Source of the DNA: a virus
Taxonomy: Duplodnaviria > Heunggongvirae > Uroviricota > Caudoviricetes
Virus record (IMG/VR): IMGVR_UViG_2737471844_000004
Location: 1 to 13,401 of that record
Length of the DNA: 13,401 bases
Direction: 5' to 3' (one strand)
The stretch's first letter is position 1, and each line of letters begins with the position of its first letter. Shown here one piece after another: positions 1,549 through 13,401 of this stretch. A program made the translations under genes and the position numbers. The notes under the pieces are model-generated. The model did no database searches. It saw nothing but the letters and a program-made list of their open reading frames with translations, and was not told the origin of the DNA.

Positions 1549-1575
1549 GCAAAAAGCCTTACCCGTAGGCTTAAC
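1549..1575 (-). terminator. Possible intrinsic terminator downstream of the 59-aa gene
   Basis: On the minus strand AAGCCT-acgggta-AGGCTT followed by TTTGC; the stem is short (6 bp). Confidence 0.3.
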
Positions 1576-1611
1576 GTTTGGCTTGGCTGTAGTCTTACCG
1601 TAACGCTCCGC

Positions 1612-1791
1612 TCACCGTCGTGGCCTGTCCGGTTTCTTCCACTGATACGGCCTCACATCATCCTGCTGGTGGCGTTCCTGTTGCAGCACAACGGAAACAG
1701 GCGCTGAACACCTGTTAATTTTGCTTGCTGGTTGTTTGATTTCGGCAATGCTGCGGATCATCTCCAGCATATCGGCTTCGGTGATGGTCAT
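1612..1791 (-). CDS. Small hypothetical protein (59 aa), below the ORF-track cutoff
   Basis: Hand translation of the minus strand: MTITEADMLEMIRSIAEIKQPASKINRCSAPVSVVLQQERHQQDDVRPYQWKKPDRPRR, stop TGA (plus 1612-1614). SD AAGGTG 6 nt upstream of the ATG (plus 1789-1791). Confidence 0.4.
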   Translation of the reverse strand: MTITEADMLEMIRSIAEIKQPASKINRCSAPVSVVLQQERHQQDDVRPYQWKKPDRPRR

Positions 1792-1823
1792 GATTTACAC
1801 CTTAGGAAATCTTAGGGGGCTGG

Positions 1824-2080
1824 TTGACACTTTCCGGCTTAAGACCTTAACAAACCTTAACATCGCAGGTTGACACACTTGACACTTTTTCGCGAAAAAC
1901 CTTATCAAACCTTAGCATTTCTAAGCATGGCAACTTGACACTTTTCGCGATTTTTTTCGGCTTTTTGACGTGGTAAATCTGGCGCAAGGCCAGTAACGGC
2001 GGGGCTTACAGCGAGGTTGACACTTTTTCGCGTTCAGAGTGTAAAGTGTCAACCCGGCAAGCTGCTCAACTTGACACTTT
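1824..2080. repeat. Array of TTGACAC(TTTTTCGCG) motifs with a second ACCTTA(A/T)CAAACCTTA family; candidate packaging-recognition or protein-binding site
   Basis: TTGACAC at 1824, 1870, 1879, 1935, 2017 and 2071, an inverted copy GTGTCAA at 2046-2052, and a TTGACG variant at 1965. Three copies carry the extension TTTT(T)CGCG. CCTTAACAAACCTTAAC at 1844 and CCTTATCAAACCTTAGC at 1891. Spacing is irregular. Lies directly 3' of the TerS-like gene. Confidence 0.6.
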
Positions 2081-2086
2081 TTGATG

Positions 2087-2614
2087 TCATTGATGGTCTG
2101 ATTTTTCCCATTCAGCTAGGGCGTTTAGCCCGGCTTCACTCCATGATTCCAGTTCATCGGCATAATCACCTGCAACATAGCAGAGTTCGCAACGCAGCAT
2201 ACTAATTGCCAGCCTGGCATTACCTCGCAAATTGTATTGTTCAAAGTAATGCTGCCCGTCGCAATCCTCAAGGCAGATAGCACCATCATCAAGAAATTGC
2301 ACTTCCCAGCCTAATTCCCCGGCTGCATCCAGCACACGCTGCTGTATGCCCTCGTCCGTTGCTGGCGCAGGAATTTTACCGTCTCTGGCCTTAACTGCTT
2401 TCCAGAACTCGCCCCACGTCATTTCCAGCGTTCTCTCTGGCCACATTTCAGAAACTGTGTCTTTTCCCTGTGCTGGTGGGCTGTTCCGCTGCTCTGTCGC
2501 TTCCACATCGATTTTTTTACCGGACATGACCACTTCGCCTTTCTCGATCCAGTCGTAAACTGTCTGGCGGCTTACGCCTTTGTGTTTGGCATATTCTGCC
2601 TTACTCATCAGCAT
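2087..2614 (-). CDS. TerS-like / Nu1-like HTH DNA-binding protein with C-terminal Cys4 cluster; candidate packaging-redirecting (Rpp-like) protein
   Basis: ORF 2087..2614. N-terminus MSKAEYAKHKGVSRQTVYDWIEKG has the HTH pattern of small terminase N-termini. C-terminal C-x3-C-x23-C-x2-C (CLEDC ... CELC). Last gene of the operon, 4 nt after the upstream stop. Confidence 0.55.
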   Translation of the reverse strand: MLMSKAEYAKHKGVSRQTVYDWIEKGEVVMSGKKIDVEATEQRNSPPAQGKDTVSEMWPERTLEMTWGEFWKAVKARDGKIPAPATDEGIQQRVLDAAGELGWEVQFLDDGAICLEDCDGQHYFEQYNLRGNARLAISMLRCELCYVAGDYADELESWSEAGLNALAEWEKSDHQ

Positions 2615-2620
2615 TATGAC

Positions 2621-3292
2621 TCACCCTTCTTTTTCCAGTTGAGCCAGCCGCCCGGATATTTCTTCCAGTTTTTCCAGGGCTGGCTTGCAGGCCGCATCAA
2701 TAACGTCCCGGACCATTCCGGCAAGCTGTTCTTCTGCTGTCGGCGTTGTTACTTCCACGCCCGATGGTTTCCCGCCCTTATCCCAAACACCAAGCGGCAC
2801 GAGCGCAACGTGATCGATAAGAAATGGCGTACCCTCAATAAAAAAATTGTCCTCGCCCATTACATCAGGAACTTCTGCCCCACCTGAGGCACCACAAAAC
2901 ACAACCGACGGACTGGTGGATACCTCCCCTCGGGCTTTCTGGATGTAATCGATGATTTCCTGTCCGTAAATCCGGCATACGCCCCACACCTCGTCACCGC
3001 GAATATACGGCAACATGACGGTGCCAATAATGCGCGACCGTTCGCCCACGTCTTCAAGGGTTTTGCTTTCGGGATGGTCGATAATGACGGGTACTCCGGC
3101 GCAACGTTCCAGGAACTGCGGATTGAGATAAGTTTGCGGTGAACGCCAGACAAATTCTTTTTCTTCGGCGCGGTAGGCCATTCCGGTTCCTGTGATACGC
3201 AGGTTAACCAGCCACATGTTGGAAAACTGATAAGGCGACGGTAGCTGTCCGTCCCGAATCTGCTTCGCCGCCTCAATTTCTGTTAAAAGCAT
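2621..3292 (-). CDS. Hypothetical protein; weak prohead-protease-like pattern plus C-terminal coiled-coil-like tail
   Basis: ORF 2621..3292. VPVIIDHPES ... IIGTV ... GEVSTSPSVVF loosely recalls HK97-type prohead protease His and Ser regions; C-terminus PALEKLEEISGRLAQLEKEG looks scaffold-like. Weak RBS. Confidence 0.55.
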   Translation of the reverse strand: MLLTEIEAAKQIRDGQLPSPYQFSNMWLVNLRITGTGMAYRAEEKEFVWRSPQTYLNPQFLERCAGVPVIIDHPESKTLEDVGERSRIIGTVMLPYIRGDEVWGVCRIYGQEIIDYIQKARGEVSTSPSVVFCGASGGAEVPDVMGEDNFFIEGTPFLIDHVALVPLGVWDKGGKPSGVEVTTPTAEEQLAGMVRDVIDAACKPALEKLEEISGRLAQLEKEG

Positions 3293-3356
3293 AATGTTAT
3301 CCGGTTATAAGCAATAAGCCCCGCCAAATCCGGCAGGGCTGAACTCAGCACGTTTT

Positions 3357-3935
3357 TCATGCCCCCGCGAGGCTTGCAACGTTAATTTTGACCAGGCGAC
3401 GGGGAGGGATTTTGAAGGCGTTCAGCCAGACGTTCGGATCTCCCTGATATTCAGTAATACGACGACCAGCTTCATCCATTCTTACGGTTTTACCCAAATG
3501 GCCCGGCGTGTTTTCCACGGCCCACTGAGCACTTTCCTGAGCAGCCTTGTAAATCTGATCTTCCAGCACCGCCAGCGTTGCAGAATCTGAAACGGAACGA
3601 ATATCCACATCACTGAATTTTTTAGCCAGCTTCTGTGCGCCAATTAATGCACGTTTGCGGTAATCCATCGACTTTTCACCAGCAAACGGGGCCGGAGCGC
3701 GACGGCCCATATTGCTGTATGCGGAATCCGCTTTAGCCTGGGCTTCTGCCAGTGAGGATTCATCTTCGACTGACGCGACGATGTTTTGATTAGCGTTATC
3801 CTCTTTTATGAAATCCTGTGCGGGGATCGCATTCAGAATTTCGATAATCTCCTGCGGAGTGCTTCCCTGCGACTCTGACAGAGCGTTAACCACCTCCATC
3901 AGTTTTAATCGCAAATCTTCTTTGCTTGCTGGCAT
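3357..3935 (-). CDS. Hypothetical protein (192 aa from internal ATG), morphogenesis/packaging module by position
   Basis: ORF 3357..3944 opens at GTG; the ATG at plus 3933-3935 follows GAGAGGTGG at good spacing. No family recognised. Confidence 0.6.
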   Translation of the reverse strand: MPASKEDLRLKLMEVVNALSESQGSTPQEIIEILNAIPAQDFIKEDNANQNIVASVEDESSLAEAQAKADSAYSNMGRRAPAPFAGEKSMDYRKRALIGAQKLAKKFSDVDIRSVSDSATLAVLEDQIYKAAQESAQWAVENTPGHLGKTVRMDEAGRRITEYQGDPNVWLNAFKIPPRRLVKINVASLAGA

Positions 3936-3974
3936 TTTTACCACCTCTCTTTTTTCACCAAAAAATCACGACCA

Positions 3975-4148
3975 TCAGGCCGGACGTTCTACGGGATAAA
4001 GCGCCCGCTGCATTAAACGCCGGGCGACCTCATGAATGCTCGGAGCAATCCCCAGCGGAGAATTGCGGCGTTCCTCGTCCTGGATGCGCTGTAATGCTTC
4101 AATCTGATCACGAGCGAGTAAAACGGGTTTCACGCTGGCTTTTCTCAT
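3975..4148 (-). CDS. Small putative DNA-binding protein (RHH-like pattern), first gene of the module
   Basis: ORF 3975..4172; preferred start MRKASVK at 4148 with AGGAGA 7 nt upstream. Pattern beta-strand KPVLLARDQ followed by two helices. Confidence 0.5.
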   Translation of the reverse strand: MRKASVKPVLLARDQIEALQRIQDEERRNSPLGIAPSIHEVARRLMQRALYPVERPA

Positions 4149-4270
4149 AGTCATATCTCCTGAACAAAACAATGATTATGATTGCACAAACTGAAATGAC
4201 GATCTACATCATTGCAATTTATGAAACAATAACGCATGATGATCGCGTTCTTCCCATTGACTTCAATCAC

Positions 4271-4313
4271 CTGCAAAAATAAAACCCGCAACACTTCTGG
4301 CTGCGGGTTTTTT
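4271..4313. terminator. Bidirectional rho-independent terminator
   Basis: AACCCGCA-(11 nt loop)-TGCGGGTT at 4283-4309, flanked by an A-run (4271-4282) on one side and a T-run (4308-4313) on the other, so it has a U-tract on either strand. Confidence 0.7.
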
Positions 4314-4321
4314 ACTGGCAC

Positions 4322-4345
4322 AAAAAAGCCGGGAAAAATCCCGGC
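4322..4345 (-). terminator. Intrinsic terminator directly after the PerC-like gene
   Basis: GCCGGG-aaaaat-CCCGGC at 4328-4345, preceded on the plus strand by A6 (4322-4327), which gives a U-run on the minus-strand transcript. Sits 6 nt past the stop at 4351. Confidence 0.65.
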
Positions 4346-4350
4346 CTCCG

Positions 4351-4638
4351 TCACTGACTGCAATTTTTCGATCCAGGGTATTTCCTGAATGCCTTACCAT
4401 TGGGCTGATGTAATCCCATCCCGGCATGTGCCCGGCTGATGGTTTCGCGCATCTCCCCGAAATTATCCTGCCGTGCTGGTGGGCGTGCTGCCTTGCGGAT
4501 ACATTCCGCGCGACGTTTTGCCGCCTGTTCCCGTGCCTTGTCATCATTCGCCAGCATGATGACCTCAGCCCACCGCGCCGCCGCTCTCCGGTACAGACCA
4601 CGCGCTTCCAGTGCTTCCGCTTTGCTGTCGTGAATCAT
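4351..4638 (-). CDS. PerC-family-like transcriptional regulator
   Basis: ORF 4351..4638. N-terminus MIHDSKAEALEARGLYRRAAARWAEV and KRRAECIRKA match the PerC/Pch signature as I recall it. Start ATG overlaps the FinO-like stop (ATGA). Confidence 0.6.
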   Translation of the reverse strand: MIHDSKAEALEARGLYRRAAARWAEVIMLANDDKAREQAAKRRAECIRKAARPPARQDNFGEMRETISRAHAGMGLHQPNGKAFRKYPGSKNCSQ

Positions 4639-5231
4639 GCGCCTGTTTTCTCCTTTGCTGCCCGGCGCTGACGTTTGCGCTTCTCATTCAGCGCCACCAG
4701 CCGCGTTTCTGCGTCCTGTTGTTCCTGTGGTGTCACCTCGCCGCACGGCTGGCCTTTCAGGTCGTAGCGTACCCCACCAGCCATTAAGGCGCGGTAATAG
4801 CGCGGACACTGCGCATAAGATGCCAGCGTCGCACGTAATGCCCCTGGCCCGAATGCCAGCCCCCTGACGGCGAGATCCTGCATCAGGTCGTCGAATATCC
4901 CCACCTTAAGCGGCTTCGGTGCTTCCCGGCTGAATAATTCAGGCCACAACTCAGTGAGGCGGTTAATGCGCCTGCGGTTTTTTCGCTGCCGTTTGGTCAT
5001 ATGCCGCCACGGTGTCGCCCCTGTGGGCTTCTGCTGCGCTTTCTGGTTACCGGGCATCACTTTATGCGCCGATGTGGTTTTATCCTGCTGCTGCTGCTGC
5101 TGCTGCTGCTGCGCCGCCTGCGTCGTTTTCTGCGGCGTGCCGTAAATGCCTTTCGGTTTTCTGTTAATAGTCAGCTTAGTCATGCTTTGCCCCATCGTTT
5201 TTACTGATTGTTTCATATCCGGTACTTTCAT
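4635..5231 (-). CDS. FinO/ProQ-domain RNA-binding protein with N-terminal poly-Q tract; start codon uncertain
   Basis: ORF 4635..5231. LWPELFSREAPKPLKVGIFDDLMQDL ... YDLKGQPCGEVTPQEQQDAETRL parallels the ProQ N-terminal/FinO domain. Q9 run encoded by the repeat at 5086-5112. No clear SD at the first ATG; internal ATGs are possible starts. Confidence 0.7.
   Translation of the reverse strand: MKVPDMKQSVKTMGQSMTKLTINRKPKGIYGTPQKTTQAAQQQQQQQQQDKTTSAHKVMPGNQKAQQKPTGATPWRHMTKRQRKNRRRINRLTELWPELFSREAPKPLKVGIFDDLMQDLAVRGLAFGPGALRATLASYAQCPRYYRALMAGGVRYDLKGQPCGEVTPQEQQDAETRLVALNEKRKRQRRAAKEKTGA
5086..5112. repeat. Perfect (CTG)9 / (CAG)9 trinucleotide repeat, in frame within the FinO-like CDS
   Basis: Plus strand reads CTG nine times from 5086 to 5112. 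Confidence 0.95.
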
Positions 5232-5236
5232 CTTCT

Positions 5237-5522
5237 GGGTAGAGGGGTAGACGGCGGGTAGATAACAAAAAATAGTCCTCTACCCACTTAACTTAATGAA
5301 AAAAAACAACTTTCACACATTAGGTAGAGGGGTAGACCGTAAAATAGAAAAGTTTGAAACTTACTTTCTTACAATCTGTGTTTTCCTCTCGCTGTATAAA
5401 AAGTTTTTTGAGCGGGGATGTTGTCTACCCCTCTACCCACTTCTCTGAAAGCCTTGTGCTACGAGGGATTCAGCGGGTAGACAATAAAAAATCACCATCT
5501 ACCCTGTGTCTACCCATCTACC
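5237..5522. repeat. Iteron cluster flanking AT-rich spacers; candidate replication origin
   Basis: About 12 copies of GGTAGA(N)/TCTACC in both orientations (5237-5264, 5277-5287, 5321-5338, 5423-5440, 5473-5483, 5497-5522), including the inverted pair AGGTAGAGGGGTAGAC / GTCTACCCCTCTACCC around an AT-rich core. Immediately 3' of the primase-helicase gene. Confidence 0.65.
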
Positions 5523-5539
5523 TGTTACGGGTATTACTC

Positions 5540-7288
5540 TTATAAAAATTCCTCGGTTCTCTCCGTTTGTATAACGTTGGTTTGTATTCGTCCTTTAAAA
5601 CCTCTTGTCAGGTATTCAGCCCCATATTCTCTTGCTGCTGACTTCATGGCCTTACCAAAATCACCGACACTTAATATTTCTTCTTCCCCCATATACTCCA
5701 TAAAGGCGAGATATAGTCTGTACAGGCTTGTACGCGGATTAAGATCAGTTAATCTCTTACCGCCTCCCATCATCATCCCATGCGGTTCATCAAGAAATGC
5801 AAGCGCCGCACATAACCCAATGACAGGATCAGTTTCCTGTTTTATTTTCAGAGCTTCGGCACCGTCGCGCTGCTCCAACAATAATTCCCGTGCTTTTTCT
5901 GGATCGGAAAAGTTAGCCAGTAATCGACGAATAATGACAGGTATTTCCGCCGCTATCTTTTGCGGTAACTCTTTATCCTTTTCGGTCTCCCTTACAATAT
6001 TATCGAACCGAAAAATTACACGTCGACGCGCAACGCCTCCGGCCCGTTCGGTGAATGTCATCGGCACGTTATTTGTTGCCAGCACGACGGACCTGATAAT
6101 TGTTGTGAAACGCTTTTCATATTTCGGGTTAATTTCAACTGGATCTCCACCCGTTATTTTTTTGATGCCGGATCCTTCACCTGTATATTTCGGCTGGTCT
6201 GCCAGGACAATAAGACGACTTCCGACAACCTGCGCACGCCCGCCAGCATCATCAAGCGATGTCATTTCAGCGCTTACCGTGTTCTGTTTCCCTGCCAGAA
6301 GGGTGGCTATGTGCGTGATTGTGCTCTTGCCGCTCCCGCCTTCCCCTGTGGCCTCAATAAACATCTGCCAGTCGTACCGGTTCGCCATAATCATGTACAG
6401 CGCGGCGCATATACGCATCATCTTTCGCGGGTCTTTTCCTGCGGCGTGATCAAGCCATTTATGAAAGTTTGGCGCGTTGTCGCGGATGTTCTCCCCTGGT
6501 ACTGGTGGCGTGTACTCAATGCCGTTATGCGTGGTGATCCAGTTATCCGGCGAGTGCGGGGAAAATTCGCCAGTTTTCATGTCAAGCACGCCATTAGAGA
6601 ACGGCAATAAATCACCTGACGGTTCCCCCATTGGCCTGGCCATAACTTTTAAAGCATCCACAGCATTACTTATTGCTCTCCGACTAAACGATGTTCCGTT
6701 TTCTTCGTAAATAGCCACCATTTCACGACTAAGATCCAGTGTGCTTACCGGAACCCAAAAATCATCGCGCCAGACGTGGACAACCTCACTCTCCTGATTC
6801 ATTGCTACATCCTGAAATCGTTCAGCTAAAAGTTTTGCCCTTTGGCTGTCCGCCATTCTGGAAAGAGATATTTTGTGTTTTTTCTCGGTCCTTCCTGACA
6901 GAATTTCTCCGCGCTCAGCCTGTTCGCGGATCCGTTGCAGGTAGTCGCGCCAGTTCTCCGGTTCCTGGTCGGTGATGCCTTTGTATAATTTCGCCTCCTG
7001 TACGCCAGCCAGCGCCAGCTTTTCAGCGATAGTATTGATCTGGATTGGCTCTATCTCCCCCGCGATATAGACACGCGCAAAACGGCGTTTCTCGTCAATA
7101 ATGCGGATATTCGCCAGGTCTGCCAGTTGCTTTGGCCCCAGGTAAACAGGAGGCACGTTATCGCCGTGTTTTCGTCCTTCACTTTCAATCCAGTGTTGAG
7201 CATGGGCGTAAGCATCCGTCCCGGCAAAAATGATTACCTCAGTGAATTTATCCTTCGGCTGATATTTTAGACTCGGTGCGTTTTTCAC
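5540..7288 (-). CDS. Primase / SF3 (D5-like) helicase replication initiator, P4 alpha-like
   Basis: ORF 5540..7288, 582 aa. Walker A GEGGSGKST, Walker B-like LIVLAD, motif C VLATNN. GTG start overlaps upstream stop (GTGA) with GGGAGG 6 nt upstream. Confidence 0.85.
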   Translation of the reverse strand: MKNAPSLKYQPKDKFTEVIIFAGTDAYAHAQHWIESEGRKHGDNVPPVYLGPKQLADLANIRIIDEKRRFARVYIAGEIEPIQINTIAEKLALAGVQEAKLYKGITDQEPENWRDYLQRIREQAERGEILSGRTEKKHKISLSRMADSQRAKLLAERFQDVAMNQESEVVHVWRDDFWVPVSTLDLSREMVAIYEENGTSFSRRAISNAVDALKVMARPMGEPSGDLLPFSNGVLDMKTGEFSPHSPDNWITTHNGIEYTPPVPGENIRDNAPNFHKWLDHAAGKDPRKMMRICAALYMIMANRYDWQMFIEATGEGGSGKSTITHIATLLAGKQNTVSAEMTSLDDAGGRAQVVGSRLIVLADQPKYTGEGSGIKKITGGDPVEINPKYEKRFTTIIRSVVLATNNVPMTFTERAGGVARRRVIFRFDNIVRETEKDKELPQKIAAEIPVIIRRLLANFSDPEKARELLLEQRDGAEALKIKQETDPVIGLCAALAFLDEPHGMMMGGGKRLTDLNPRTSLYRLYLAFMEYMGEEEILSVGDFGKAMKSAAREYGAEYLTRGFKGRIQTNVIQTERTEEFL

Positions 7289-7575: not shown

Positions 7576-7579
7576 GGTT

Positions 7580-7780
7580 TTATTTTCCTGTCAGCAGTTC
7601 CGGTTTTATTTCCGCACGAATACAAAGTTCAGAAAAAAATTCAGGAGAACCAACAATCTCATTACTTTTCAGTCGGCATTGTGATTTCACTTTCCCTTTA
7701 TCCAGGTAAACCAGTACGCGTCCGGTGAAATCATCTGGCACATTAAGCACTACGGGTACATGCACTTCATGATTATGCAT
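7580..7780 (-). CDS. Small hypothetical protein (66 aa), FTGR-motif family
   Basis: ORF 7580..7780; GGAGGATG SD; start ATGCATAA overlaps upstream stop. Shares DDFTGRVLVYLDKGKV ... PEF motif with both halves of the 7999..8364 protein. Confidence 0.6.
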   Translation of the reverse strand: MHNHEVHVPVVLNVPDDFTGRVLVYLDKGKVKSQCRLKSNEIVGSPEFFSELCIRAEIKPELLTGK

Positions 7781-8006
7781 GGCTTACATCCTCCGTGAAT
7801 TTTCTTCTGTAACGCGCCTCTGCCACATATTCCGCATAGTCCGACGCAATACTAAGAATCATTTCACCCTCTGACTTGTAGCCACTGGTATTGATAAGAA
7901 AATATGCAGCTTTCATCATGTCAGCAACGCTCAACAATGCGCCCGATGTATCTTCCGGTGCGCCATCAAATTCCCGTTTCAGGGAATTAAAACGATCATC
8001 ACGCAT
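7773..8006 (-). CDS. Small hypothetical protein (77 aa)
   Basis: ORF 7773..8006; G-rich SD; start ATGCGTGA overlaps upstream stop by 8 nt. Confidence 0.6.
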   Translation of the reverse strand: MRDDRFNSLKREFDGAPEDTSGALLSVADMMKAAYFLINTSGYKSEGEMILSIASDYAEYVAEARYRRKFTEDVSHA

Positions 8007-8364
8007 GTTTACCCCCCTGAATGACCTGATAACCGCAACTGGTCAGCAACTCGATAAATTCCGGCAGTGTGCCGAAACAGCAATCATCACGCAGCCGTTC
8101 GCAGGATACCTCGACGCCGTTTTCGTAGTGACTCACCATACGTCCGGTAAAATGCAGATCATCATCGTGATGGCTCGTTGACGGCTTAATCAGTCGCGCA
8201 CGTTCCGCCAGTTCCAGCAATGCTTCAACGCTTCCGGCAATTGCACCATCCGGCAGGTGGTAATTACGCACTATGCGCCCGTTCTCCACATGGACCAGTA
8301 GCTGCCCGGTAAATTTCTCGTCAAACTGAATGCTGTTAAGGTCAGAAATTGACAGGTTATGCAT
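7999..8364 (-). CDS. Hypothetical protein with internal tandem duplication of an FTG(Q/R)-x-LV-x-x-E-N-G motif domain
   Basis: ORF 7999..8382; preferred start MHNLSIS at 8364 with AGGAGG upstream, overlapping the upstream stop (ATGCATAA). FTGQLLVHVENGRIV and FTGRMVSHYENGVEV repeat within the protein. Confidence 0.6.
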   Translation of the reverse strand: MHNLSISDLNSIQFDEKFTGQLLVHVENGRIVRNYHLPDGAIAGSVEALLELAERARLIKPSTSHHDDDLHFTGRMVSHYENGVEVSCERLRDDCCFGTLPEFIELLTSCGYQVIQGGKHA

Positions 8365-8581
8365 GGTGCACCTCCTGCACATCAGCCATGATAATTTTTC
8401 CGGCCTTATCCAGTGCCTGATCGGCTTTTAGCTGCACAAATGCTAAATAATGGGAGATGCATTCTGATTCTCTGGCTGCGTGTTTATGCGCCACACCAGC
8501 GATAGCAGAAATCTCAATAAGTGAATCCATCAGCGTTTTGATAGCGTCTACCGCTGCATCAGGCCATGTTGCATTACACAT
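8357..8581 (-). CDS. Small hypothetical protein (74 aa)
   Basis: ORF 8357..8581; AGGAGGTGG SD; start ATGTGTAA overlaps upstream stop by 8 nt. Confidence 0.6.
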   Translation of the reverse strand: MCNATWPDAAVDAIKTLMDSLIEISAIAGVAHKHAARESECISHYLAFVQLKADQALDKAGKIIMADVQEVHHA

Positions 8582-8939
8582 GTTCCACCTCCTGGCGAAT
8601 ACGGGCGGCGAATACCATCACGCAGCCATCAGGAGATTGCTGACGTGCTTCCTGTTCGCTGGTGGCCTCGATGTGAATTACGCGCGGTTGTGCCGTGCTC
8701 AGGGCGATAAAACGCCAGATAAAATTGTTCTCGCATTTCTGAATAAACAGCGTGTTTTCTTCGCGCCCTTTCCATGTTGCCGAGATATAGCCCATGTCAT
8801 TGAGCATCTCGCAGGCATCAACCAGCGTATCAGCAGCTACGTGTACAGTGTTTTTACCGTCAGCTATGCAATCACGGTGCACCGCCAGGAAGGTGTATAT
8901 AAATTTAGGGTGAGTTTGGGTATGCTGTGTTCCAGCCAT
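8574..8939 (-). CDS. Hypothetical protein (121 aa), first gene of the leftward operon
   Basis: Internal ATG (plus 8937-8939) of the long minus-strand open frame, with GAGGT 7 nt upstream and a promoter/operator region immediately 5'. Natural-looking sequence MAGTQHTQTHPKFIYTF... Confidence 0.6.
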   Translation of the reverse strand: MAGTQHTQTHPKFIYTFLAVHRDCIADGKNTVHVAADTLVDACEMLNDMGYISATWKGREENTLFIQKCENNFIWRFIALSTAQPRVIHIEATSEQEARQQSPDGCVMVFAARIRQEVEHV

Positions 8940-9028
8940 AATCGTTACCTCATTTAACGGTTTGGTTAGACGCCCCGCTACTGCCGCAAACAGTTCGGGG
9001 CGTTGTCGTTTACATCCTCTTACTGAGG

Positions 9029-9104
9029 TGTGATTTAAATTAAATTTAACTGAATCACAGGTCAAGTATTTTTTGTGATTCTTTTTTGTGTATACTGAAT
9101 CACA
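9029..9104. promoter_or_regulatory. Divergent promoter region with two TGTGATT-N17-AATCACA operator-like palindromes
   Basis: Palindromes at 9029-9059 and 9074-9104. Plus-strand -10-like TATACT at 9091-9096 lies inside the second; minus-strand -35 TTGACC (9060-9065) and -10 TAATTT (9037-9042) overlap the first. Confidence 0.55.
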
Positions 9105-9126
9105 TCTTTTGTTTAGGAGAATGCAC

Positions 9127-9432
9127 ATGGCAAAAAACACTATCAACGACAAATCAAAACAGATTTCAATTCGTATCCCACATGATGCTTTTGAAGGCAT
9201 GGAATCCGTAAAACTGGACGGTGAAAGCAACGCCGGATTCATAGTAACCGCCATGCGCGGTGAGATCGCCCGCCGCCAGGCAGAAGGAAGCGGAGAAAAT
9301 CCCCTGGTTTCTTCGCTCGATGCGCTGGCGCAGGTGGAAAAAATCGGAGTCAAAGCTGCCGAGGAGATCGGGCAGCTCGTCACCGTCGCACGTGAAGAAC
9401 TCCAGCGCCGCAAGGCCAAAGAATCAGAATAA
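9127..9432 (+). CDS. Small putative DNA-binding regulator (RHH-like); candidate island repressor
   Basis: ORF 9088..9432; ATG at 9127 with AGGAGA 6 nt upstream. Pattern ISIRIP (beta), HDAFEGMESVKL, NAGFIVTAMRGEIARR (helices). The only plus-strand gene in the backbone. Confidence 0.65.
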   Translation: MAKNTINDKSKQISIRIPHDAFEGMESVKLDGESNAGFIVTAMRGEIARRQAEGSGENPLVSSLDALAQVEKIGVKAAEEIGQLVTVAREELQRRKAKESE

Positions 9433-9667
9433 TAACTATCATCGCCGTGGTGTGAGGAACTCCGGCGCATTGCTTTACAGGTACACAGAATGACCAACAA
9501 AGAATCAACCAATACACCATCACCGGCACGGAAAAGACGGCGCAGAAAGATAGAGCACGAATCAGAAAGATTCGCGCCATGTGCTTTTGCCCTTGAGCAA
9601 TTCCTTAAAGAGTACAGGCGCACAAAAATGGGATCGCATACCTGGAAAACATCGCGGCATGGCAATG

Positions 9668-10106
9668 TTAAAGAGCATGAATAGCCCACCAGCAAGCCAG
9701 CACACTGATCACATTGCCCACCAGCCGCAAATCTGGCATTGTTGGCAATGTGTTCAAGTGTGTAGCTTTCCCACTGGTGGCCCTCTGCAGTCGCCTTTGT
9801 TTTATCCAGAACGAAATCAGACATCAGATTGATCAGCACCTGGTGACCTGACAAAATCGCATCAGTCACGCCACCAGCAAAATTTTTTGCTTTCCGGACA
9901 GCGTGGCCAACGGCATTTTGCAGCGAAATATTCTGCATTTCTGGCGTGCTGTAGTAACGGTGATCAGTGCCTTCACTCTGTGCGACCACAACGCTATAAT
10001 CTGCCTCGTAGACAGTAAGCAATATGGCGCAGTAGGCTATTCGTTCACAAAGGCGCTCCGGCAACGGGGCGCTTTCTCTTTTTGTAACGGTCAGAGCGTT
10101 ACACAT
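9668..10106 (-). CDS. Hypothetical ORF with well-defined 5' end but unresolved 3' end; possibly frameshifted
   Basis: ATG at 10106 overlaps the AntA-like stop by 8 nt (ATGTGTAA) and starts MCNA like the gene at 8581. First ~130 aa look protein-like, then Cys/Ser-rich junk; no in-frame stop until 8574. An alternate frame ends at plus 9668. Confidence 0.3.
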
Positions 10107-10899
10107 GGCTGTTTTCCTCCATGCGACGGGCTAACCAACGCTGCGAAAGGCGAATTAATTCAGCTTTCCGCTGGTGGTAGTCCTGGCCTAACTCAATCAG
10201 CGTGATATTGCTCTGCTCAAGGTAAGAAAGGTGCTCAAGCTGCAACACGCTCATGTGGTCGCGTGGTTCACCTGTAATGCCGTTCGCCTGCGCCCACTGT
10301 TTTGCAGTCATGCCACCCAGCACGATACGCGCCAGCATGTTCGCTTCCGTGGTGTAGTGGTGCTGGAGTGTGTTTTTACCCAGTTCAGCCCGGTACGCCT
10401 CCAGCGCGGCACACATTGGCTTAAAGTAGCTGGCAACTGTGATACGGGCTTTCAGTTCCCGGCGTAACGCTGCGGAACGTACAGGCGCAACCTTGTGTAG
10501 CTCCTCCTCGCATTTGATAAAGTACTGACGAACGGCGCGCCCCTGTTCGGTGCGCTCGACCATCGCCAGTTCTTTCGCCATGTTGATAGTGCTCAGGTAG
10601 TCGTGCTCTACACGTTGGCGAGATTTTGCGCTCACCGGATTGGGGGAGGTCAAATTTTCTACGAATTCAAAATCCACGCCCTTTTTAAATCCGTACTCAT
10701 CAATGCGTCCTTTAATCCAAGTTGTGAAATCACGCTTCACACCCAGCGCCTTATGCAACGCTCTGGCGCTAACAATATTGGTTTCACGCCCGCCAATAAC
10801 GCCGGAAATAACCGGGATAATTTCGCCGAAATTTTGTTGGCTCTGGTTTTCAGGCCGAACGAAGCCCTGCCCCTGTACGGGCGTTTTTCGCAGTTTCAT
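10099..10899 (-). CDS. AntA/AntB-type phage antirepressor-like protein
   Basis: ORF 10099..10899. IPVISGVIGGRETNIVSARALHKALGVKRDFTTWIKGRIDEYGF ... MAKELAMVERTEQGRAVRQYFIKCEEEL matches the AntA N-terminal pattern I recall. SD AGGAG 5 nt upstream. Confidence 0.6.
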   Translation of the reverse strand: MKLRKTPVQGQGFVRPENQSQQNFGEIIPVISGVIGGRETNIVSARALHKALGVKRDFTTWIKGRIDEYGFKKGVDFEFVENLTSPNPVSAKSRQRVEHDYLSTINMAKELAMVERTEQGRAVRQYFIKCEEELHKVAPVRSAALRRELKARITVASYFKPMCAALEAYRAELGKNTLQHHYTTEANMLARIVLGGMTAKQWAQANGITGEPRDHMSVLQLEHLSYLEQSNITLIELGQDYHQRKAELIRLSQRWLARRMEENSHV

Positions 10900-10977
10900 A
10901 AAAACTCCTGCTATCGAATTAAGTTACTTTTTATTTGCTGGTGGATAGCTGGGGCTTCTGGCCCCGTAGCTGTTTTA

Positions 10978-11196
10978 TCAGGCTGATGTGTTTCGGCGTT
11001 CTTCCAGCCAGCGATTAACCTCTACCGCATCGAATGCAGTGCTTTTCTCACCCAGTTTGATGGGCTTAGGCATCTTCCCGCTACGCACCCAACGATCGAG
11101 CGTTGATAAGCTGGTACCCAGCAATTCAGCCAGGCGATAGCGGCGGATATAGCCAGTTGCAGGGATTGCGGTTTGAAGTATTGGTTGGTTTTTCAT
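10978..11196 (-). CDS. alpA: AlpA-family DNA-binding regulator (excisionase-like)
   Basis: ORF 10978..11289; probable start MKNQPIL at 11196. RRYRLAELLGTSLSTLDRWVRSGKMPKPIKLG ... VEVNRWLEERR is the typical AlpA signature. Confidence 0.8.
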   Translation of the reverse strand: MKNQPILQTAIPATGYIRRYRLAELLGTSLSTLDRWVRSGKMPKPIKLGEKSTAFDAVEVNRWLEERRNTSA

Positions 11197-11308
11197 ATGC
11201 CCCATTACCTTTGTTGTTGGTTTGTGATTCGTAATAGGGGCATTAAATAACAAATGAAATGATGTGTGTGTGAGTTTTAGAAAAAACACTGTGACTTTTC
11301 TTATTTCA

Positions 11309-12091
11309 CTATCTAAAACGCTCTCGCCAGCTTTTCCAAGTGTTCTTATCTGGTTGTGGGATTACAATGCCTTTTTGAGCACCTATTTGTGCAATTTTTT
11401 TATTTAACTTGTTAGGCGGCAAAGATATTATCTCATTGTCTGTTAATCCGGCAATTCTTAATAATCCATATATCATTTTAAATTGATGTATTGTTAATCT
11501 TGGTAACTTGTGATTTTCTTTTTTTATAGTGTTGTTTATGGAGTAAATTGGAAATCCATTTGTTATTGATTTATAAAGGTTGTCAATGTGCTCTCTGGTT
11601 ATTAATAATGAATCAGGTGTAATCTTAATGTTGCCGCTTGTTTTTGCATGGCATGAAAAAATAAATGTGGGATTCGCAGTGCGACGTGAAAGCGGTATGG
11701 ATGTATTCATAGAGATAGTTTTGTTTCTTACTATAGTCTCTTGAATATCAAAAACTCCAGAAACCTTTGCCTCAAAAATAACACCATTTTCTTTTATTTC
11801 ATCACTATATTCATGAATAATTATGCCAAGAGAGGAAATTTCTTTTTTGATGAGAAAAGAAATAAAATCAATATAGTCTTCATCCTTTGGCCATGTAAAA
11901 TCACGATAACCAAAATACCCCTCACAGTAAGCATTTTTTATTTTTGTGGCAAAATTAATTCTGTTAATATCCTGCCAATGCCATAAATCATCTATCTCAC
12001 ATTCTAAAATTTGAGCTGCTCTATCTAAAGAGCAGAATTCTAATGGAGGTAATTGTTTTTTTTGCCATATTGTTTCATTAATATTTGTCAT
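11309..12091 (-). CDS. Hypothetical protein (260 aa), AT-rich orphan cargo gene between int and alpA
   Basis: ORF 11309..12091. Markedly AT-rich with Asn/Ile/Lys-rich protein composition, unlike the flanking int and alpA. No motif recognised; weak RBS. Confidence 0.6.
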   Translation of the reverse strand: MTNINETIWQKKQLPPLEFCSLDRAAQILECEIDDLWHWQDINRINFATKIKNAYCEGYFGYRDFTWPKDEDYIDFISFLIKKEISSLGIIIHEYSDEIKENGVIFEAKVSGVFDIQETIVRNKTISMNTSIPLSRRTANPTFIFSCHAKTSGNIKITPDSLLITREHIDNLYKSITNGFPIYSINNTIKKENHKLPRLTIHQFKMIYGLLRIAGLTDNEIISLPPNKLNKKIAQIGAQKGIVIPQPDKNTWKSWRERFR

Positions 12092-12147
12092 GATTGCACT
12101 ACCGTTATGAAAAAATATATTCGTTAATGAATTAGCCTTAATGTCTA

Positions 12148-13401
12148 TTATTTATTAGATTGCGTGATGTCAGAACATATCATGTTTTCTAAATTCACCA
12201 GCAAATCAGTCCACTGTGCCAGCGCCGCTTTGCGCTCATCAAAATATTGATGGCGGTTATAAATGCCCTCTACGCCTTTTATGCGGTGGTTAAGGCATCG
12301 TTCAGCAACGATCGGGTCAACTCCCAATGCTGCTAAATGTGTTCGTGCTGTTCGCCGGAAGTCGTGAATTGTAAAGTTGGGGACGTTCGGCATTTCTGCT
12401 CTGACTTTTGCCAATGCAACAGGAAGGGTGCTTTCCTGGATGTGAGGGATCATTCTGTGCTGCATTTTTCTGGCAGGTAATACCCATGCGCTATTGCATG
12501 AAAATGTGTGCAATTCTCGCAACCATTCTATGGTCGCTGGTGGTAATGGTATGTCGATAGCATCGCCATTTTTAGTTCGTTGTTCTGGTAGATGCCAAAT
12601 CGCGCCATCTAAGTCGAATTCATCCCACCTGGCGGCGCATAACTCCATTTTTCTGACACACAATGCTAAGAGCAACTTAAAGGTTAATTCGTTCTGGCGG
12701 CTGAATCCTTTGGCTTTACGCATGGCCTGAAAAAATTGGATTAATTCGTCACGGTTCAGCCAGCGATCACGAGATAATTCTTTCCCACCAGCATCTGATA
12801 CTTCAAAAGCTGAGCAGGGGTTAACCTCCAAAGCAAGGCGTTTAATACCGTAGTCAAATATTCGACGTGTCCACCGAAGAACGTCAGTAGCAATTGTTGG
12901 AGCGCCTCTATCAACAATGCTTTTAAGCATGGCATCAATATGGCGTGGTTTTACATCTTCAACCTTCATGTGGCCTATGGCAGGATTTATGTCTTTATCA
13001 ATGCGCCTGCGGAGAATATCTGGGTGTTTCCATCGGGGAAGTATTTGCCGTGCAAAGTATTCGGCGGCAAGTTCAGAAACATGCAGCGCGTTTTTTTCAG
13101 CTTCTATTTTTGCCAGTGCTTCGGCTTTACGCTGCTGTTTTTCTGCGGCTACGTCATATCCCAAAGCAACTCGTGCGGAAAGTTCTTTTGCCAGTTCCCT
13201 GGCTTTTGATAACGATAATTCAGAATATGAACCAATAAGCATGGCACGAGATTTTCCTGCCAGTTTATATCGAAACCGCCATGTCGGGGATCTATCCACC
13301 TCTCTATACCGGAGATATAGCCCACCACCATCAGCACGACCTTCGAAATGTTCTCCGGCTTTTATCCATGCGCGGATCTGCATATCTGTGAGTTTTGGCA
13401 T
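12148..13401 (-). CDS. int: P4-type tyrosine integrase (site-specific recombinase)
   Basis: ORF 12148..13401, 417 aa. N-terminus MPKLTDMQIRAWIKAGEH...DGGGLYLRY and C-terminal HDFRRTARTHLAALG...ERCLNH...IYNRHQY carry the R...HxxR...Y catalytic signature. ATG sits exactly at the window edge. Confidence 0.95.
   Translation of the reverse strand: MPKLTDMQIRAWIKAGEHFEGRADGGGLYLRYREVDRSPTWRFRYKLAGKSRAMLIGSYSELSLSKARELAKELSARVALGYDVAAEKQQRKAEALAKIEAEKNALHVSELAAEYFARQILPRWKHPDILRRRIDKDINPAIGHMKVEDVKPRHIDAMLKSIVDRGAPTIATDVLRWTRRIFDYGIKRLALEVNPCSAFEVSDAGGKELSRDRWLNRDELIQFFQAMRKAKGFSRQNELTFKLLLALCVRKMELCAARWDEFDLDGAIWHLPEQRTKNGDAIDIPLPPATIEWLRELHTFSCNSAWVLPARKMQHRMIPHIQESTLPVALAKVRAEMPNVPNFTIHDFRRTARTHLAALGVDPIVAERCLNHRIKGVEGIYNRHQYFDERKAALAQWTDLLVNLENMICSDITQSNK

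What the first reader, a model, noticed from the sequence alone, without database searches (positions are those of the whole stretch)
1665..12792. Chi octamer (GCTGGTGG) strongly over-represented, in both orientations
I count twelve copies: plus-strand GCTGGTGG at 1665, 2472, 4475, 10170, 10937 and 12536, and the complement CCACCAGC at 4694, 4784, 9686, 9718, 9871 and 12785. A random 8-mer would be expected about 0.4 times over both strands of 13.4 kb, and E. coli averages roughly one per 5 kb (from memory). Three copies cluster within 9686-9878, beside the anomalous junction. None occur in the AT-rich cargo or the 5.0-9.6 kb replication block. This could protect linear or rolling-circle DNA from RecBCD, and it points to an E. 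coli-like host.
Basis: seen in the sequence. Interest (0 to 1): 0.5.

Follow-up and report, generated by a model that had tools for sequence, protein, structure and literature searches.

The report
Chi-rich phage satellite of E. coli
This 13.4 kb stretch is a phage-parasitic island (PICI-type satellite) of E. coli that carries the host's RecBCD-controlling "Chi" signal about four times more densely than the chromosome, which suggests the island uses the host's own repair signal instead of making a RecBCD inhibitor.

Summary
There are 13 exact Chi octamers, not 12: 7 on the + strand and 6 on the - strand. Chi is the commonest octamer in the window. Shuffles predict 0.37 copies. Codon-preserving shuffles predict 1.5 to 4.0, and none of 2,000 reached 13. 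Host chromosome sampled here has 0.24 Chi/kb against 0.97/kb in the window.

The window is an integrated PICI-type phage satellite of E. coli. It carries an integrase, AlpA, Ant, Icd-like, a D5/DUF5906 primase, ProQ/FinO, PerC, DUF2213, a TerS-like HTH protein and a PDC-M04 defence cargo. No recombinase or Gam/Abc2 was detected.

Chi enrichment runs through the family: 64 of 83 IMG/VR relatives have at least 0.55 Chi/kb. The model PICI EcCICFT073 has 11 Chi in 11.35 kb, and nine of them are at positions not homologous to the window's. P4, CFT073's lambdoid prophages (one encoding Gam) and a helper-embedded PICI lineage are Chi-free or at host level.

Best reading: functional Chi sites are kept by selection so that RecBCD spares and recombines satellite DNA. 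This resembles Chi-rich Rec-minus lambdoid phages and P1, but here the sites are not polarised. I found no report of this for satellites. The mechanism and the life-cycle stage are inferred, not shown.

The parts
1..13401 (-). Integrated PICI-type phage satellite, with most genes on the - strand. Genes: int 12148-13401; AlpA 10978-11289; AntA 10099-10899; Icd-like 8574-8939; DUF4222 7285-7575; D5/DUF5906 primase 5540-7288; ProQ/FinO 4635-5231; PerC 4351-4638; DUF2213 2621-3292; TerS-like HTH 2087-2614. The + strand cargo PDC-M04A/B lies at 52-1244.
1665..1672 (+). Chi, antisense in the 59-aa ORF 1612-1791 (codons CAC CAG). It lies near the left edge of the conserved core.
   Evidence: intact in 12 of 14 aligned relatives
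2472..2479 (+). Chi, antisense in the TerS-like HTH gene (Pro-Pro-Ala, CCA CCA GC).
   Evidence: 14 of 19 intact
4475..4482 (+). Chi, antisense in PerC (Pro-Pro-Ala).
   Evidence: 18 of 19 intact
4694..4701 (-). Chi, sense strand of the ProQ/FinO gene (Leu-Val frame).
   Evidence: 14 of 19 intact
4774..4781 (-). Chi, sense strand of the ProQ/FinO gene (Ala-Gly-Gly).
   Evidence: 19 of 19 intact
8658..8665 (+). Chi, antisense in the Icd-like gene. A Chi sits at the homologous position in EcCICFT073.
   Evidence: (17 of 19 intact)
9686..9693 (-). Chi, first of a same-orientation triple. Alignment breakpoints fall inside this octamer in 6 of 20 aligned loci (5 of 19 once identical loci are removed).
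9718..9725 (-). Chi, second of the triple (Ala-Gly-Gly in the unannotated ORF 9687-10106). A Chi sits at the homologous position in EcCICFT073.
   Evidence: (14 of 14 intact, against a local octamer background of 0.62)
9871..9878 (-). Chi, third of the triple.
   Evidence: 17 of 18 intact
10170..10177 (+). Chi, antisense near the 3' end of AntA.
   Evidence: 13 of 14 intact
10937..10944 (+). Chi, intergenic between AntA and AlpA, close to the right edge of the conserved core (matches end at 10899 or 10982).
   Evidence: 14 of 14 intact, against a local background of 0.59
12536..12543 (+). Chi, antisense in the integrase gene (Pro-Pro-Ala).
12785..12792 (-). Chi, sense strand of the integrase gene (Ala-Gly-Gly).

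Best explanation
The 13 octamers are genuine Chi sites kept at high density by selection in a PICI-type phage satellite of E. coli. The satellite encodes no detectable recombinase or RecBCD inhibitor of its own. Its DNA is exposed as double-strand ends at several points: replication tails and broken forks after induction, terminase cuts, and linear (probably multimeric) DNA injected into a new cell. RecBCD loads at such an end and degrades the DNA until it meets a correctly oriented Chi. It then attenuates its nuclease and loads RecA. With about one Chi per kb, split roughly evenly between the two orientations and spread around the genome, an enzyme entering from any end in either direction is switched after roughly 0.1 to 5 kb. 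The element is then spared and channelled into recombination: concatemer or multimer formation and resolution, repair, and exchange with related resident islands. In this way the satellite uses the host's 'self' signal instead of carrying a Gam-like inhibitor. Shown here: the sites exist, they are strongly enriched, the enrichment is at the DNA level, it recurs in independent lineages, and the sites are conserved above background. Inferred: that RecBCD acts on them, and at which stage of the life cycle.
For: (1) Enrichment against all nulls. With the same Markov-2 model, observed/expected is 20.1 for the window and 3.5 for 200 kb of host chromosome. Density is 0.97/kb against 0.236/kb in the host. 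(2) The signal is in the DNA, not the proteins. All six reading frames are used. Eleven of 21 Chi-compatible peptide sites are realised as Chi, against 45 of 183 in host long ORFs (Fisher P = 0.01). Synonymous shuffles retain only about 4. (3) It is specific to exact Chi: 13 copies against at most 3 for any one-mismatch neighbour. Flanking bases are not conserved, so the octamer is not part of a longer motif. (4) It runs through the family and is partly convergent. The 17 close relatives have 0.58-1.24 Chi/kb. In a primase/ProQ-seeded set of 66 loci there are 491 Chi against 39.9 expected. Unrelated gene families are each Chi-rich: SSB 3.2/kb, ProQ 3.0/kb, PerC 1.7/kb, AntA and DUF2213 about 1.15/kb, primase 0.7/kb. 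Relatives carry extra Chi at window-equivalent positions 2912, 4548, 6240 and 6501. EcCICFT073 has 11 Chi in 11.35 kb, Chi is its top octamer, and only 2 of the 11 sites are homologous to the window's. (5) Chi octamers are conserved above the local background in two reference frames: 88% against 76% (P = 0.025) and 69% against 51% (P = 0.027). (6) No recombinase, exonuclease, Gam or Abc2 was found by Pfam or PHROGs. This matches the published rule that Rec-minus, inhibitor-minus lambdoid phages and P1 are Chi-rich, whereas Gam-plus phages are Chi-free (PMC3784561, PMC12315714). I reproduced that rule here: CFT073's lambdoid prophage DNA has 0 Chi in 62 kb, and the prophage in the icd site encodes Exo, Bet and Gam.
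Against: No experiment links these sites to RecBCD in this element. The known helper of the related EcCICFT073 is Gam-plus, so RecBCD should be inhibited during helper-driven replication and packaging. EcCICFT073 transfers equally into DH5alpha (recA) and into rec+ strains (PMC6092414, Table 1), so RecA-dependent recombination in the recipient is not required in the laboratory. Orientation is unpolarised (7:6 here, 5:6 in EcCICFT073). The characterised Chi-rich phage LLS has 20:3 facing its cos end, so the cos-entry model does not carry over. A sister lineage with the same replication module (helper-embedded PICIs; 0.06-0.35/kb over the 14 loci, which include flanking prophage DNA; about 0.26/kb for the island delimited in L119) and P4 (0 Chi) manage without enrichment. 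About nine small ORFs have unknown function, so a novel RecBCD inhibitor cannot be excluded.
Confidence: 0.55

Rival explanations
1. Chi 'drive' without benefit to the life cycle. These islands are very common and are often present in several copies per cell, so incoming linear satellite DNA frequently recombines with resident relatives through RecBCD and RecA. Segments lying downstream of a correctly oriented Chi survive and are copied into the resident preferentially. Chi-bearing alleles are therefore over-transmitted and accumulate in both orientations, especially beside module junctions.
For: Relatives occur in 2,018 of 5,426 genomes, with up to 6 places per genome, and the family is strongly mosaic. 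Homology breakpoints lie nearer to Chi than random positions do: 11 of 46 fall within 50 bp against 4.6 expected (P = 0.005). Six of 20 aligned loci break inside the Chi at 9686. Orientation is balanced. The recently acquired low-GC cargo has no Chi.
Against: The breakpoint test is confounded. Conserved octamers extend BLAST alignments, and both Chi sites and breakpoints are concentrated in the same variable regions. The absence of Chi from low-GC cargo is also expected from composition alone. The helper-embedded lineage and P4 are equally mobile in E. coli yet are not enriched. The idea still requires the sites to be functional Chi, so it overlaps the best explanation.
Confidence: 0.2
2. Shield against CRISPR adaptation and other defences fed by degraded DNA. 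RecBCD degradation products between a DNA end and the nearest Chi are the main source of new type I-E spacers (Levy et al. 2015, as cited in PMC8791490). Dense Chi in both orientations minimises this material from a replicating island, and the island avoids carrying a RecBCD inhibitor that would trigger RecBCD-guarding systems such as retrons or Gabija.
For: Dispersed Chi with balanced orientation is what protection from breaks at random positions requires. The published link between RecBCD, Chi, spacer acquisition and RecBCD guardians is summarised in PMC8791490, and the abstract of PMC12407980 is listed. The island itself carries defence cargo (PDC-M04), so it lives in the arms-race niche.
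Against: This is purely inferential. Many E. coli strains have silent or absent CRISPR adaptation (my own knowledge). It does not explain why P4 and the helper-embedded PICIs lack the trait.
Confidence: 0.1
3. By-product of composition, codon or amino-acid usage, or passive amelioration of an old island towards host Chi content.
For: Chi contains the commonest Leu codon, and E. coli itself over-represents Chi (observed/expected 3.5 in the host sample). Chi-compatible peptides are somewhat more frequent here (1.78/kb of coding sequence against 1.26/kb).
Against: None of 2,000 codon-preserving shuffles reaches 13. Density is 4 times that of the host, and amelioration can only reach host level. 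All six frames are used, including the non-preferred codon pairs GCT GGT and CCA CCA. One-mismatch neighbours are not enriched. Related elements in the same host range from 0 to 1.36 Chi/kb.
Confidence: 0.03
4. The octamer is the recognition site of an island-encoded or helper-encoded DNA-binding protein, or part of a dispersed regulatory repeat, and only coincides with Chi.
For: The island encodes several DNA-binding proteins (AlpA, PerC, HTH proteins). One repeated motif array does exist, TTGACACTTT x6 at 1824-2080.
Against: Twelve of the 13 copies lie inside ORFs in varied frames, and their flanks are not conserved. The same exact octamer is enriched in diverged lineages with different regulators, and it is the host's known RecBCD signal. 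The known repeat array is unrelated in sequence.
Confidence: 0.02

Closest known systems
Chi-rich lambdoid phages lacking a Rec module and RecBCD inhibitor (phage LLS; Bobay et al. 2013, PMC3784561; Zheng et al. 2025, PMC12315714)
   Same: A mobile element of enterobacteria with no detectable recombinase or Gam/Abc2. Chi is its most frequent octamer, and TGCTGGTG is the runner-up, as reported for LLS and P1. Chi is far above the composition expectation and above host density. Gam-plus relatives in the same host are Chi-free.
   Different: This is a satellite, not a phage: it is 13 kb with no structural or lysis genes. Its density is about 1 per 1.0 kb, against 1 per 1.86 kb in LLS. Its orientation is balanced (7:6) and dispersed, whereas LLS has 20:3 facing cos with a terminal cluster. 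Dependence on RecBCD has not been tested.
Phage P1 (50 Chi in 94.8 kb; requires RecBCD and RecA for growth; as summarised in PMC12315714)
   Same: High Chi density with Chi as the top octamer. P1 relies on host recombination to process linear, repeat-containing injected DNA.
   Different: P1 is an autonomous headful-packaging phage and plasmid prophage. Whether this island is packaged by headful or by cos is unknown (no lambda, P2/P4 or P22 packaging site found).
EcCICFT073, the model Gram-negative PICI (PMC6092414, PMC6739421)
   Same: The backbone order is the same: int, AlpA, YlcI, Icd-like, small ORFs, DUF4222, D5-type primase, PerC. The Chi density is the same (11 in 11.35 kb) and so is the balanced orientation.
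   Different: Nucleotide similarity is limited to a few segments at 80-92%. EcCICFT073 has two exact lambda cosN sites, capsid and decoration homologues, SSB and RppA. The window has none of these. It has a DUF2213 plus PHROG-6216 pair, a TerS-like HTH protein and a TTGACACTTT array instead. I found no mention of Chi content in the papers read.
Chi protection of rolling-circle plasmid multimers and linear DNA from RecBCD (Dabert, Ehrlich and Gruss 1992; Kuzminov et al. 1994; recalled from memory, not read here)
   Same: The proposed mode of action is the same: a correctly oriented Chi stops RecBCD from destroying DNA that has a free double-strand end.
   Different: Those were engineered single sites shown experimentally. 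Here the case is a natural, dense, two-orientation array and is inferred only.
Satellite phage P4
   Same: An E. coli satellite with a related D5-type primase and Icd-like region.
   Different: P4 has zero Chi in 11.6 kb. It has sid, delta, psu and epsilon, which are absent here. From my own knowledge, P2/P4 package monomeric circles rather than concatemers, which may remove the need for Chi.

Membership tests
E. coli Chi (crossover hotspot instigator) site | Exact octamer 5'-GCTGGTGG-3' | tested here: met
   13 exact copies
E. coli Chi (crossover hotspot instigator) site | Resides in a host whose RecBCD recognises this octamer | tested here: met
   A 97.9% identical copy lies in an E. coli chromosome, and relatives occur in 2,018 of 5,426 E. 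coli genomes
E. coli Chi (crossover hotspot instigator) site | Orientation-dependent attenuation of RecBCD nuclease and hotspot activity in vivo | not testable with these tools
   Needs genetics or biochemistry
Chi-enriched Rec-minus, inhibitor-minus temperate phage class (LLS type) | Chi far above the composition expectation and at or above host density | tested here: met
   Observed/expected 20.1 against 3.5 in the host with the same model; 0.97/kb against 0.236/kb
Chi-enriched Rec-minus, inhibitor-minus temperate phage class (LLS type) | No recombinase or exonuclease module and no Gam/Abc2-type RecBCD inhibitor | tested here: met
   No such hit for any ORF in Pfam or PHROGs. Caveat: about nine small ORFs have unknown function
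Chi-enriched Rec-minus, inhibitor-minus temperate phage class (LLS type) | Chi predominantly in one orientation facing the cos end, clustered between ori and cos | tested here: not met
   7 on + and 6 on -, dispersed; 5:6 in EcCICFT073 with respect to its known cosN sites
Chi-enriched Rec-minus, inhibitor-minus temperate phage class (LLS type) | Is a lambdoid phage with its own morphogenesis and lysis genes | tested here: not met
   No capsid, portal, tail, TerL or lysis genes
Chi-enriched Rec-minus, inhibitor-minus temperate phage class (LLS type) | Growth enhanced by host RecBCD | not testable with these tools
   Experimental
Gram-negative PICI (EcCICFT073 type) | Tyrosine integrase at one end, with an AlpA-family regulator nearby | tested here: met
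   Integrase domains PF13356, PF22022 and PF00589; AlpA PF05930 at 33.7 bits against a cut-off of 21
Gram-negative PICI (EcCICFT073 type) | Its own primase/replicase module; size about 10-15 kb; lacks a full set of virion and lysis genes | tested here: met
   D5_N plus DUF5906 primase; 13.4 kb between yicG and yicC; same gene order as EcCICFT073
Gram-negative PICI (EcCICFT073 type) | Helper cos site (lambda-type cosN) and an Rpp protein | tested here: not met
   No cosN at up to 2 mismatches, whereas EcCICFT073 has two exact copies. The TerS-like HTH protein matched no PDB chain at E <= 0.001 (best hit E = 0.38, an unrelated xylanase; RppC was not among the hits)
Gram-negative PICI (EcCICFT073 type) | Induction, replication and packaging dependent on a helper phage | not testable with these tools
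   Experimental. Indirect support: near-identical cores sit at different att sites with different integrases
P4-like satellite | sid, delta, psu and epsilon genes, and the P2 cos site | tested here: not met
   No such hits. The P4/P2 cos 19-mer is absent at up to 4 mismatches

The most novel reading that the evidence does not exclude
The two-orientation Chi array is a built-in, host-powered recombination system for the satellite. Outward-guarding Chi pairs (- on the left, + on the right) bracket the large Chi-free modules: the replication block 4782-8657, and the int/att/cargo segment from 12793 across the junction to 1664. RecBCD entering a linear incoming copy from either end is switched on just outside a module and loads RecA into the flanking homology. 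This drives cassette-like replacement of replication, integrase and defence-cargo modules between incoming and resident islands. It would explain both the extreme mosaicism of Gram-negative PICIs and why they stay Chi-rich even when their helpers supply Gam.
Probability: 0.15. Interest if true: 0.75.

Novelty: new variant of a known kind. Interest (0 to 1): 0.55.

Why it matters
Chi enrichment is an accepted signature of phages that depend on host RecBCD rather than blocking it. Finding the same signature in phage satellites is new as far as I could find. Here it is denser than in LLS or P1, and it is unpolarised. It also appears in the experimentally tractable model island EcCICFT073, whose helper is Chi-free and Gam-plus. 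This points to an unrecognised dependence of Gam-less satellites on host recombination or on evading RecBCD.

It gives a directly testable prediction: recode 11-13 sites and compare recBCD, recC* and gam backgrounds in an existing genetic system. It adds a sequence feature that separates PICI lineages, which are Chi-rich, from P4 and the helper-embedded PICIs, which are not. It also bears on how defence-carrying islands shuffle their cargo. If the sites prove irrelevant to the satellite's fitness, the pattern would still be a rare natural case for 'Chi drive'.

Tried and rejected
- **Composition or codon by-product:** rejected by shuffles, neighbour and permutation controls, and the host baseline.
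- **Longer repeat containing Chi:** rejected, because the flanks differ.
- **"Capsid-gene-bearing satellites are the Chi-poor ones":** tested and rejected. Of 36 loci with capsid or decoration genes, 20 are Chi-rich, and primase genes carry similar Chi density in both groups. The Chi-poor set is essentially one helper-embedded lineage.
- **Clustering loci into independent lineages:** single linkage at 50% coverage collapsed nearly everything into two groups because of mosaicism, so I could not count independent lineages properly.
- **Polarity relative to a packaging site:** there is no lambda cosN, P2/P4 cos or P22 pac in the window. In EcCICFT073, Chi orientation shows no polarity around its two cosN sites.
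- **Outward-facing bracket pattern ('- to +' gaps longer than '+ to -' gaps):** only suggestive. Window P = 0.06. The family Mann-Whitney P = 0.0025 comes from non-independent loci, and only 40 of 70 loci go in the predicted direction.
- **Breakpoint-Chi proximity:** P = 0.005 but confounded.
- **Rfam:** no RNA family in the window, including the 8.8-11.3 kb region; the only hit was a chance one.
- **Genome-contig scan with the DUF2213 protein:** returned a single distant Nitrospira MAG, which was useless for Chi.
- **PDB sequence search for an Rpp relative:** negative.
- **CFT073 fetches:** two missed EcCICFT073 but supplied the Gam-plus prophage control. The third found the island.

Full report
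**1. The observation**

An exact search finds 13 copies of GCTGGTGG in the 13,401-base window.
- The + strand copies start at 1665, 2472, 4475, 8658, 10170, 10937 and 12536.
- The - strand copies start at 4694, 4774, 9686, 9718, 9871 and 12785.

The claim that the 5.0-9.6 kb block is Chi-free is therefore off by one site (8658, in the Icd-like gene). The primase and small-ORF segment 5232-8581 and the two low-GC accessory segments (1-1244 and 11309-12091) really have none.

**2. Is it more than chance?**

Yes, by every null I could build.
- Dinucleotide shuffles give 0.37 +/- 0.61, with a maximum of 3.
- Markov models of order 0 to 4 give 0.3 to 2.3.
- Permuting codons within each gene gives 1.5, with a maximum of 5. 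Permuting only synonymous codons, which keeps every protein and each gene's codon usage, gives 4.0 with a maximum of 10. None of 2,000 runs reaches 13.
- Chi is the single most frequent octamer in the window. The runner-up is TGCTGGTG, which overlaps Chi. The same pattern is reported for phages LLS and P1 (PMC12315714).
- The 24 one-mismatch neighbours of Chi average 0.96 copies (maximum 3). The 168 permutations of its letters average 0.49. So the peak is specific to the exact octamer.
- The bases flanking the 13 copies are not conserved.
- All six coding frames are used, including the non-preferred codon pairs GCT-GGT and CCA-CCA.
- Of 21 peptide positions in the window's genes that could encode Chi, 11 do. 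In long ORFs of the host sample, 45 of 183 do (Fisher P = 0.01).

Against the host:
- 267 kb of E. coli chromosome, from four 50 kb samples plus flanks, holds 63 Chi. That is 0.236/kb, or 1 per 4.2 kb, and agrees with the published figure of 1 per 4.6 kb.
- The window holds 0.97/kb. Poisson P(>=13) is 2.8e-5.
- No 13.4 kb host window exceeded 8 in the 200 kb that was scanned with a sliding window.
- With one and the same trinucleotide model, observed/expected is 3.5 for the host and 20.1 for the window.
- The chromosome flanks of the island in three genomes have 6 Chi in 24 kb.

**3. What the DNA is**

The window matches E. coli chromosomes. A 97.9% identical copy lies between yicG and yicC in strain Z1323HEC0477. 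Relatives occur in 2,018 of 5,426 complete genomes, with up to six places per genome. It does not match the phage collection at megablast level.

The gene content is as follows:
- tyrosine integrase (12148-13401);
- an AlpA-family regulator (10978-11289);
- AntA antirepressor;
- YlcI/YnfO;
- an Icd-like protein;
- several small ORFs, and DUF4222;
- a D5_N/DUF5906 primase (5540-7288);
- ProQ/FinO-like and PerC proteins;
- a DUF2213 protein and a 195-aa protein, which together match PHROG 6216;
- a 175-aa protein whose N-terminus resembles a small-terminase HTH domain;
- a low-GC cargo that matches the PADLOC candidate defence system PDC-M04 (A and B).

The gene order is that of EcCICFT073, the model Gram-negative phage-inducible chromosomal island. 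A 98.8% identical core sits beside tRNA-Thr with a different integrase and different cargo in another strain. The element is therefore modular and mobile.

It is not P4-like: there is no sid, delta, psu or epsilon, and no P2 cos site. It also lacks the lambda cosN that EcCICFT073 carries twice.

No recombinase, exonuclease, Gam or Abc2 was detected. About nine small ORFs remain of unknown function.

**4. The trait belongs to the family**

- Seventeen close relatives from IMG/VR have 0.58-1.24 Chi/kb in both orientations.
- A wider set, seeded with the primase and the ProQ-like protein, gives 491 Chi against 39.9 expected in 66 loci, with a median of 0.69/kb.
- Taken together, 64 of 83 loci have at least 0.55/kb.
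- Most window sites are shared with relatives. Relatives also carry Chi at window-equivalent positions 2912, 4548, 6240 and 6501, where the window has none, and in non-homologous modules.
- Unrelated gene families are each Chi-rich: SSB 3.2/kb, ProQ-like 3.0/kb, PerC 1.7/kb, TerS-like 1.2/kb, AntA and DUF2213 about 1.15/kb, and primase 0.7/kb.

Chi octamers are better conserved than neighbouring random octamers:
- With the window as reference, 88% against 76% of aligned cells are intact (permutation P = 0.025).
- With EcCICFT073 as reference, the figures are 69% against 51% (P = 0.027).

These are modest effects, and the relatives are not independent.

The most telling comparison is within strain CFT073.
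- EcCICFT073 (NC_004431, about 1,377,800-1,389,150) has 11 Chi in 11.35 kb: 5 on + and 6 on -.
- Chi is its top octamer.
- Only two of its sites are homologous to the window's (8658 and 9718).
- The lambdoid prophage DNA nearby, totalling 62 kb, has no Chi at all. It includes the prophage in the icd site, which encodes Exo, Bet and Gam and is described as the island's helper in PMC10111431.
- The chromosome in between is at the usual density.

Two further controls:
- Satellite P4 has no Chi in 11.6 kb.
- One lineage that shares the primase, DUF4222 and Icd module is at or below host level. These are helper-embedded PICIs inserted in a lambdoid capsid gene. The 14 loci, which include flanking prophage DNA, have 0.06-0.35/kb. 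The island delimited in L119 has about 0.26/kb. The few sites sit next to the primase.

So enrichment does not follow simply from living in E. coli, from being a satellite, or from the shared replication proteins.

**5. How it most likely works**

Established knowledge:
- RecBCD enters double-strand ends and degrades DNA.
- When it meets 5'-GCTGGTGG-3' from that sequence's 3' side, it attenuates its nuclease and loads RecA.
- Lambdoid phages fall into two groups. One group encodes a Rec module plus Gam or Abc2 and avoids Chi. The other group encodes neither and is Chi-rich.
- LLS and P1 grow better with RecBCD, or require it (PMC3784561, PMC12315714).

The island fits the second group in content and in Chi excess. 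I therefore infer that its Chi sites are functional and selected, and that RecBCD spares and recombines satellite DNA instead of destroying it.

The arrangement differs from LLS, which has 20:3 facing cos. Here the sites are split 7:6 and dispersed, with same-orientation clusters at 4694/4774 and at 9686/9718/9871. That is what one would want if ends arise at unpredictable positions or on both sides. Possible sources are broken forks during amplification, both ends of injected linear multimers, or headful-type ends. This lineage has a TerS-like gene, an adjacent array of six TTGACACTTT repeats, and no known cos site.

Which stage matters is not established, and two facts cut against the simplest versions.
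- The EcCICFT073 helper makes Gam.
- EcCICFT073 transfers equally into a recA recipient (PMC6092414, Table 1).

A generalist argument remains open: the islands are mobilised by several helpers, and published work reports that a sizeable minority of lambdoid phages lack Gam. This argument is inference.

**6. Rivals**

- **A drive process.** Chi-linked segments of incoming DNA may be preferentially copied into resident relatives. This fits the abundance, multiplicity and mosaicism of the family. It also fits the excess of homology breakpoints near Chi: 11 of 46 within 50 bp against 4.6 expected (P = 0.005), with six of 20 aligned loci breaking inside the 9686 octamer. That test is confounded by the way alignments end at conserved words.
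- **A module-exchange variant.** This is suggested by Chi pairs that face outward around the two largest Chi-free segments. Support is weak: window P = 0.06, and 40 of 70 loci go in the predicted direction.
- **A shield against CRISPR spacer acquisition from RecBCD degradation products.** This is compatible with the geometry but untested.
- **A composition or codon by-product, or a different DNA-binding function.** Both are essentially excluded.

**7. Comparison with what is known, and novelty**

The phenomenon works like the Chi-rich Rec-minus lambdoid phages and P1. It fails two defining features of that class, because it is not a phage and is not polarised. So I file it as a new variant of a known kind rather than as a member.

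As an element, it is a new lineage of Gram-negative PICI that lacks the lambda cos and Rpp packaging features.

Full-text searches for Chi or RecBCD together with satellites, PICIs or the octamer itself found no report of Chi enrichment in satellites. The library does not cover all journals, so prior mention cannot be excluded.

**8. Verdict**

- The enrichment is real, acts at the DNA level, runs through the family, and is partly convergent.
- Its RecBCD-related function is the best-supported reading, at about 0.55, but it is inferred.
- Interest is moderate. The phenomenon is already known for phages. Its extension to satellites, including a model system whose helper is Gam-plus and Chi-free, is unreported as far as I could find and is immediately testable.

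Noticed in passing
window 8574-10106 (- strand): A 510-codon stop-free frame runs from just after AntA, antisense through the o9490 and YlcI/YnfO genes, and in frame into the Icd-like gene. PGAP annotates only the last 121 codons and leaves 9685-10099 unannotated. A comparable long ORF (median 356 aa) is present in 54 of 64 Chi-rich relatives. The 9687-10106 part has coding-like GC1 > GC2. The part antisense to YlcI does not. No family hit for the 9687-10106 part (Pfam, PHROGs) or for the whole 510-aa ORF (Pfam).
   Followed up: partly
window 1824-2080: Six exact copies of TTGACACTTT (five direct, one inverted, spaced about 55 bp apart in pairs) lie only here, between a 59-aa ORF and the TerS-like HTH gene. 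This is a candidate packaging (pac or cosB-like) or origin site for this lineage, which lacks lambda cosN.
   Followed up: partly
window 52-1244 (+ strand), GC 0.37: The cargo pair (a DUF3800 protein plus a 161-aa protein) matches the PADLOC candidate defence system PDC-M04, components A (E = 7e-98) and B (E = 1e-73). In a sibling island the same slot holds an orc1/cdc6-family gene instead.
   Followed up: partly
window 11309-12091 (- strand), GC 0.31: A 260-aa ORF between the integrase and AlpA has no Pfam, PHROG or PADLOC hit and a very low GC. It is probably a second accessory slot.
   Followed up: partly
window 5085-5111: A perfect (CTG)9 run encodes a poly-glutamine tract in the N-terminal part of the ProQ/FinO-like protein. 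Relatives annotate this protein with different lengths (530-560 nt), so the tract may vary in length.
   Followed up: no
window 2621-3944 (- strand): The DUF2213 protein and the following 195-aa protein match the N-terminal (115-328) and C-terminal (409-544) parts of one 545-aa PHROG (6216). There is also a weak head-maturation-protease hit. This looks like a split protease/scaffold-like pair and might redirect helper capsid assembly.
   Followed up: partly
L121, L122:1-1700 and L123 (NC_004431: 1360001-1372900 and 1397300-1446700): The lambdoid prophage DNA flanking EcCICFT073 in CFT073 contains no Chi at all in about 62 kb. It includes the Exo/Bet/Gam-encoding prophage in the icd site. This is a clean local reproduction of the published rule that Gam-plus phages avoid Chi.
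   Followed up: yes
L119 (NZ_CP027550 1586546-1603046) and loci L045-L056, L063, L067, L076, L089: A helper-embedded PICI lineage (inserted in a lambdoid major-capsid gene) shares the primase, DUF4222 and Icd module but has only 1-4 Chi per locus, most of them within 0.6 kb of the primase gene or inside it. Why this lineage is at host level while EcCICFT073 is about four times higher is unexplained.
   Followed up: partly
L120 (P4, NC_001609): Satellite phage P4 has zero Chi sites in 11,624 bp, against an expectation of about 0.55.
   Followed up: yes
window 9774-9781: The one-mismatch Chi variant ACTGGTGG lies on the + strand inside the 9686-9878 cluster, in the opposite orientation to the three exact sites.
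   Followed up: no
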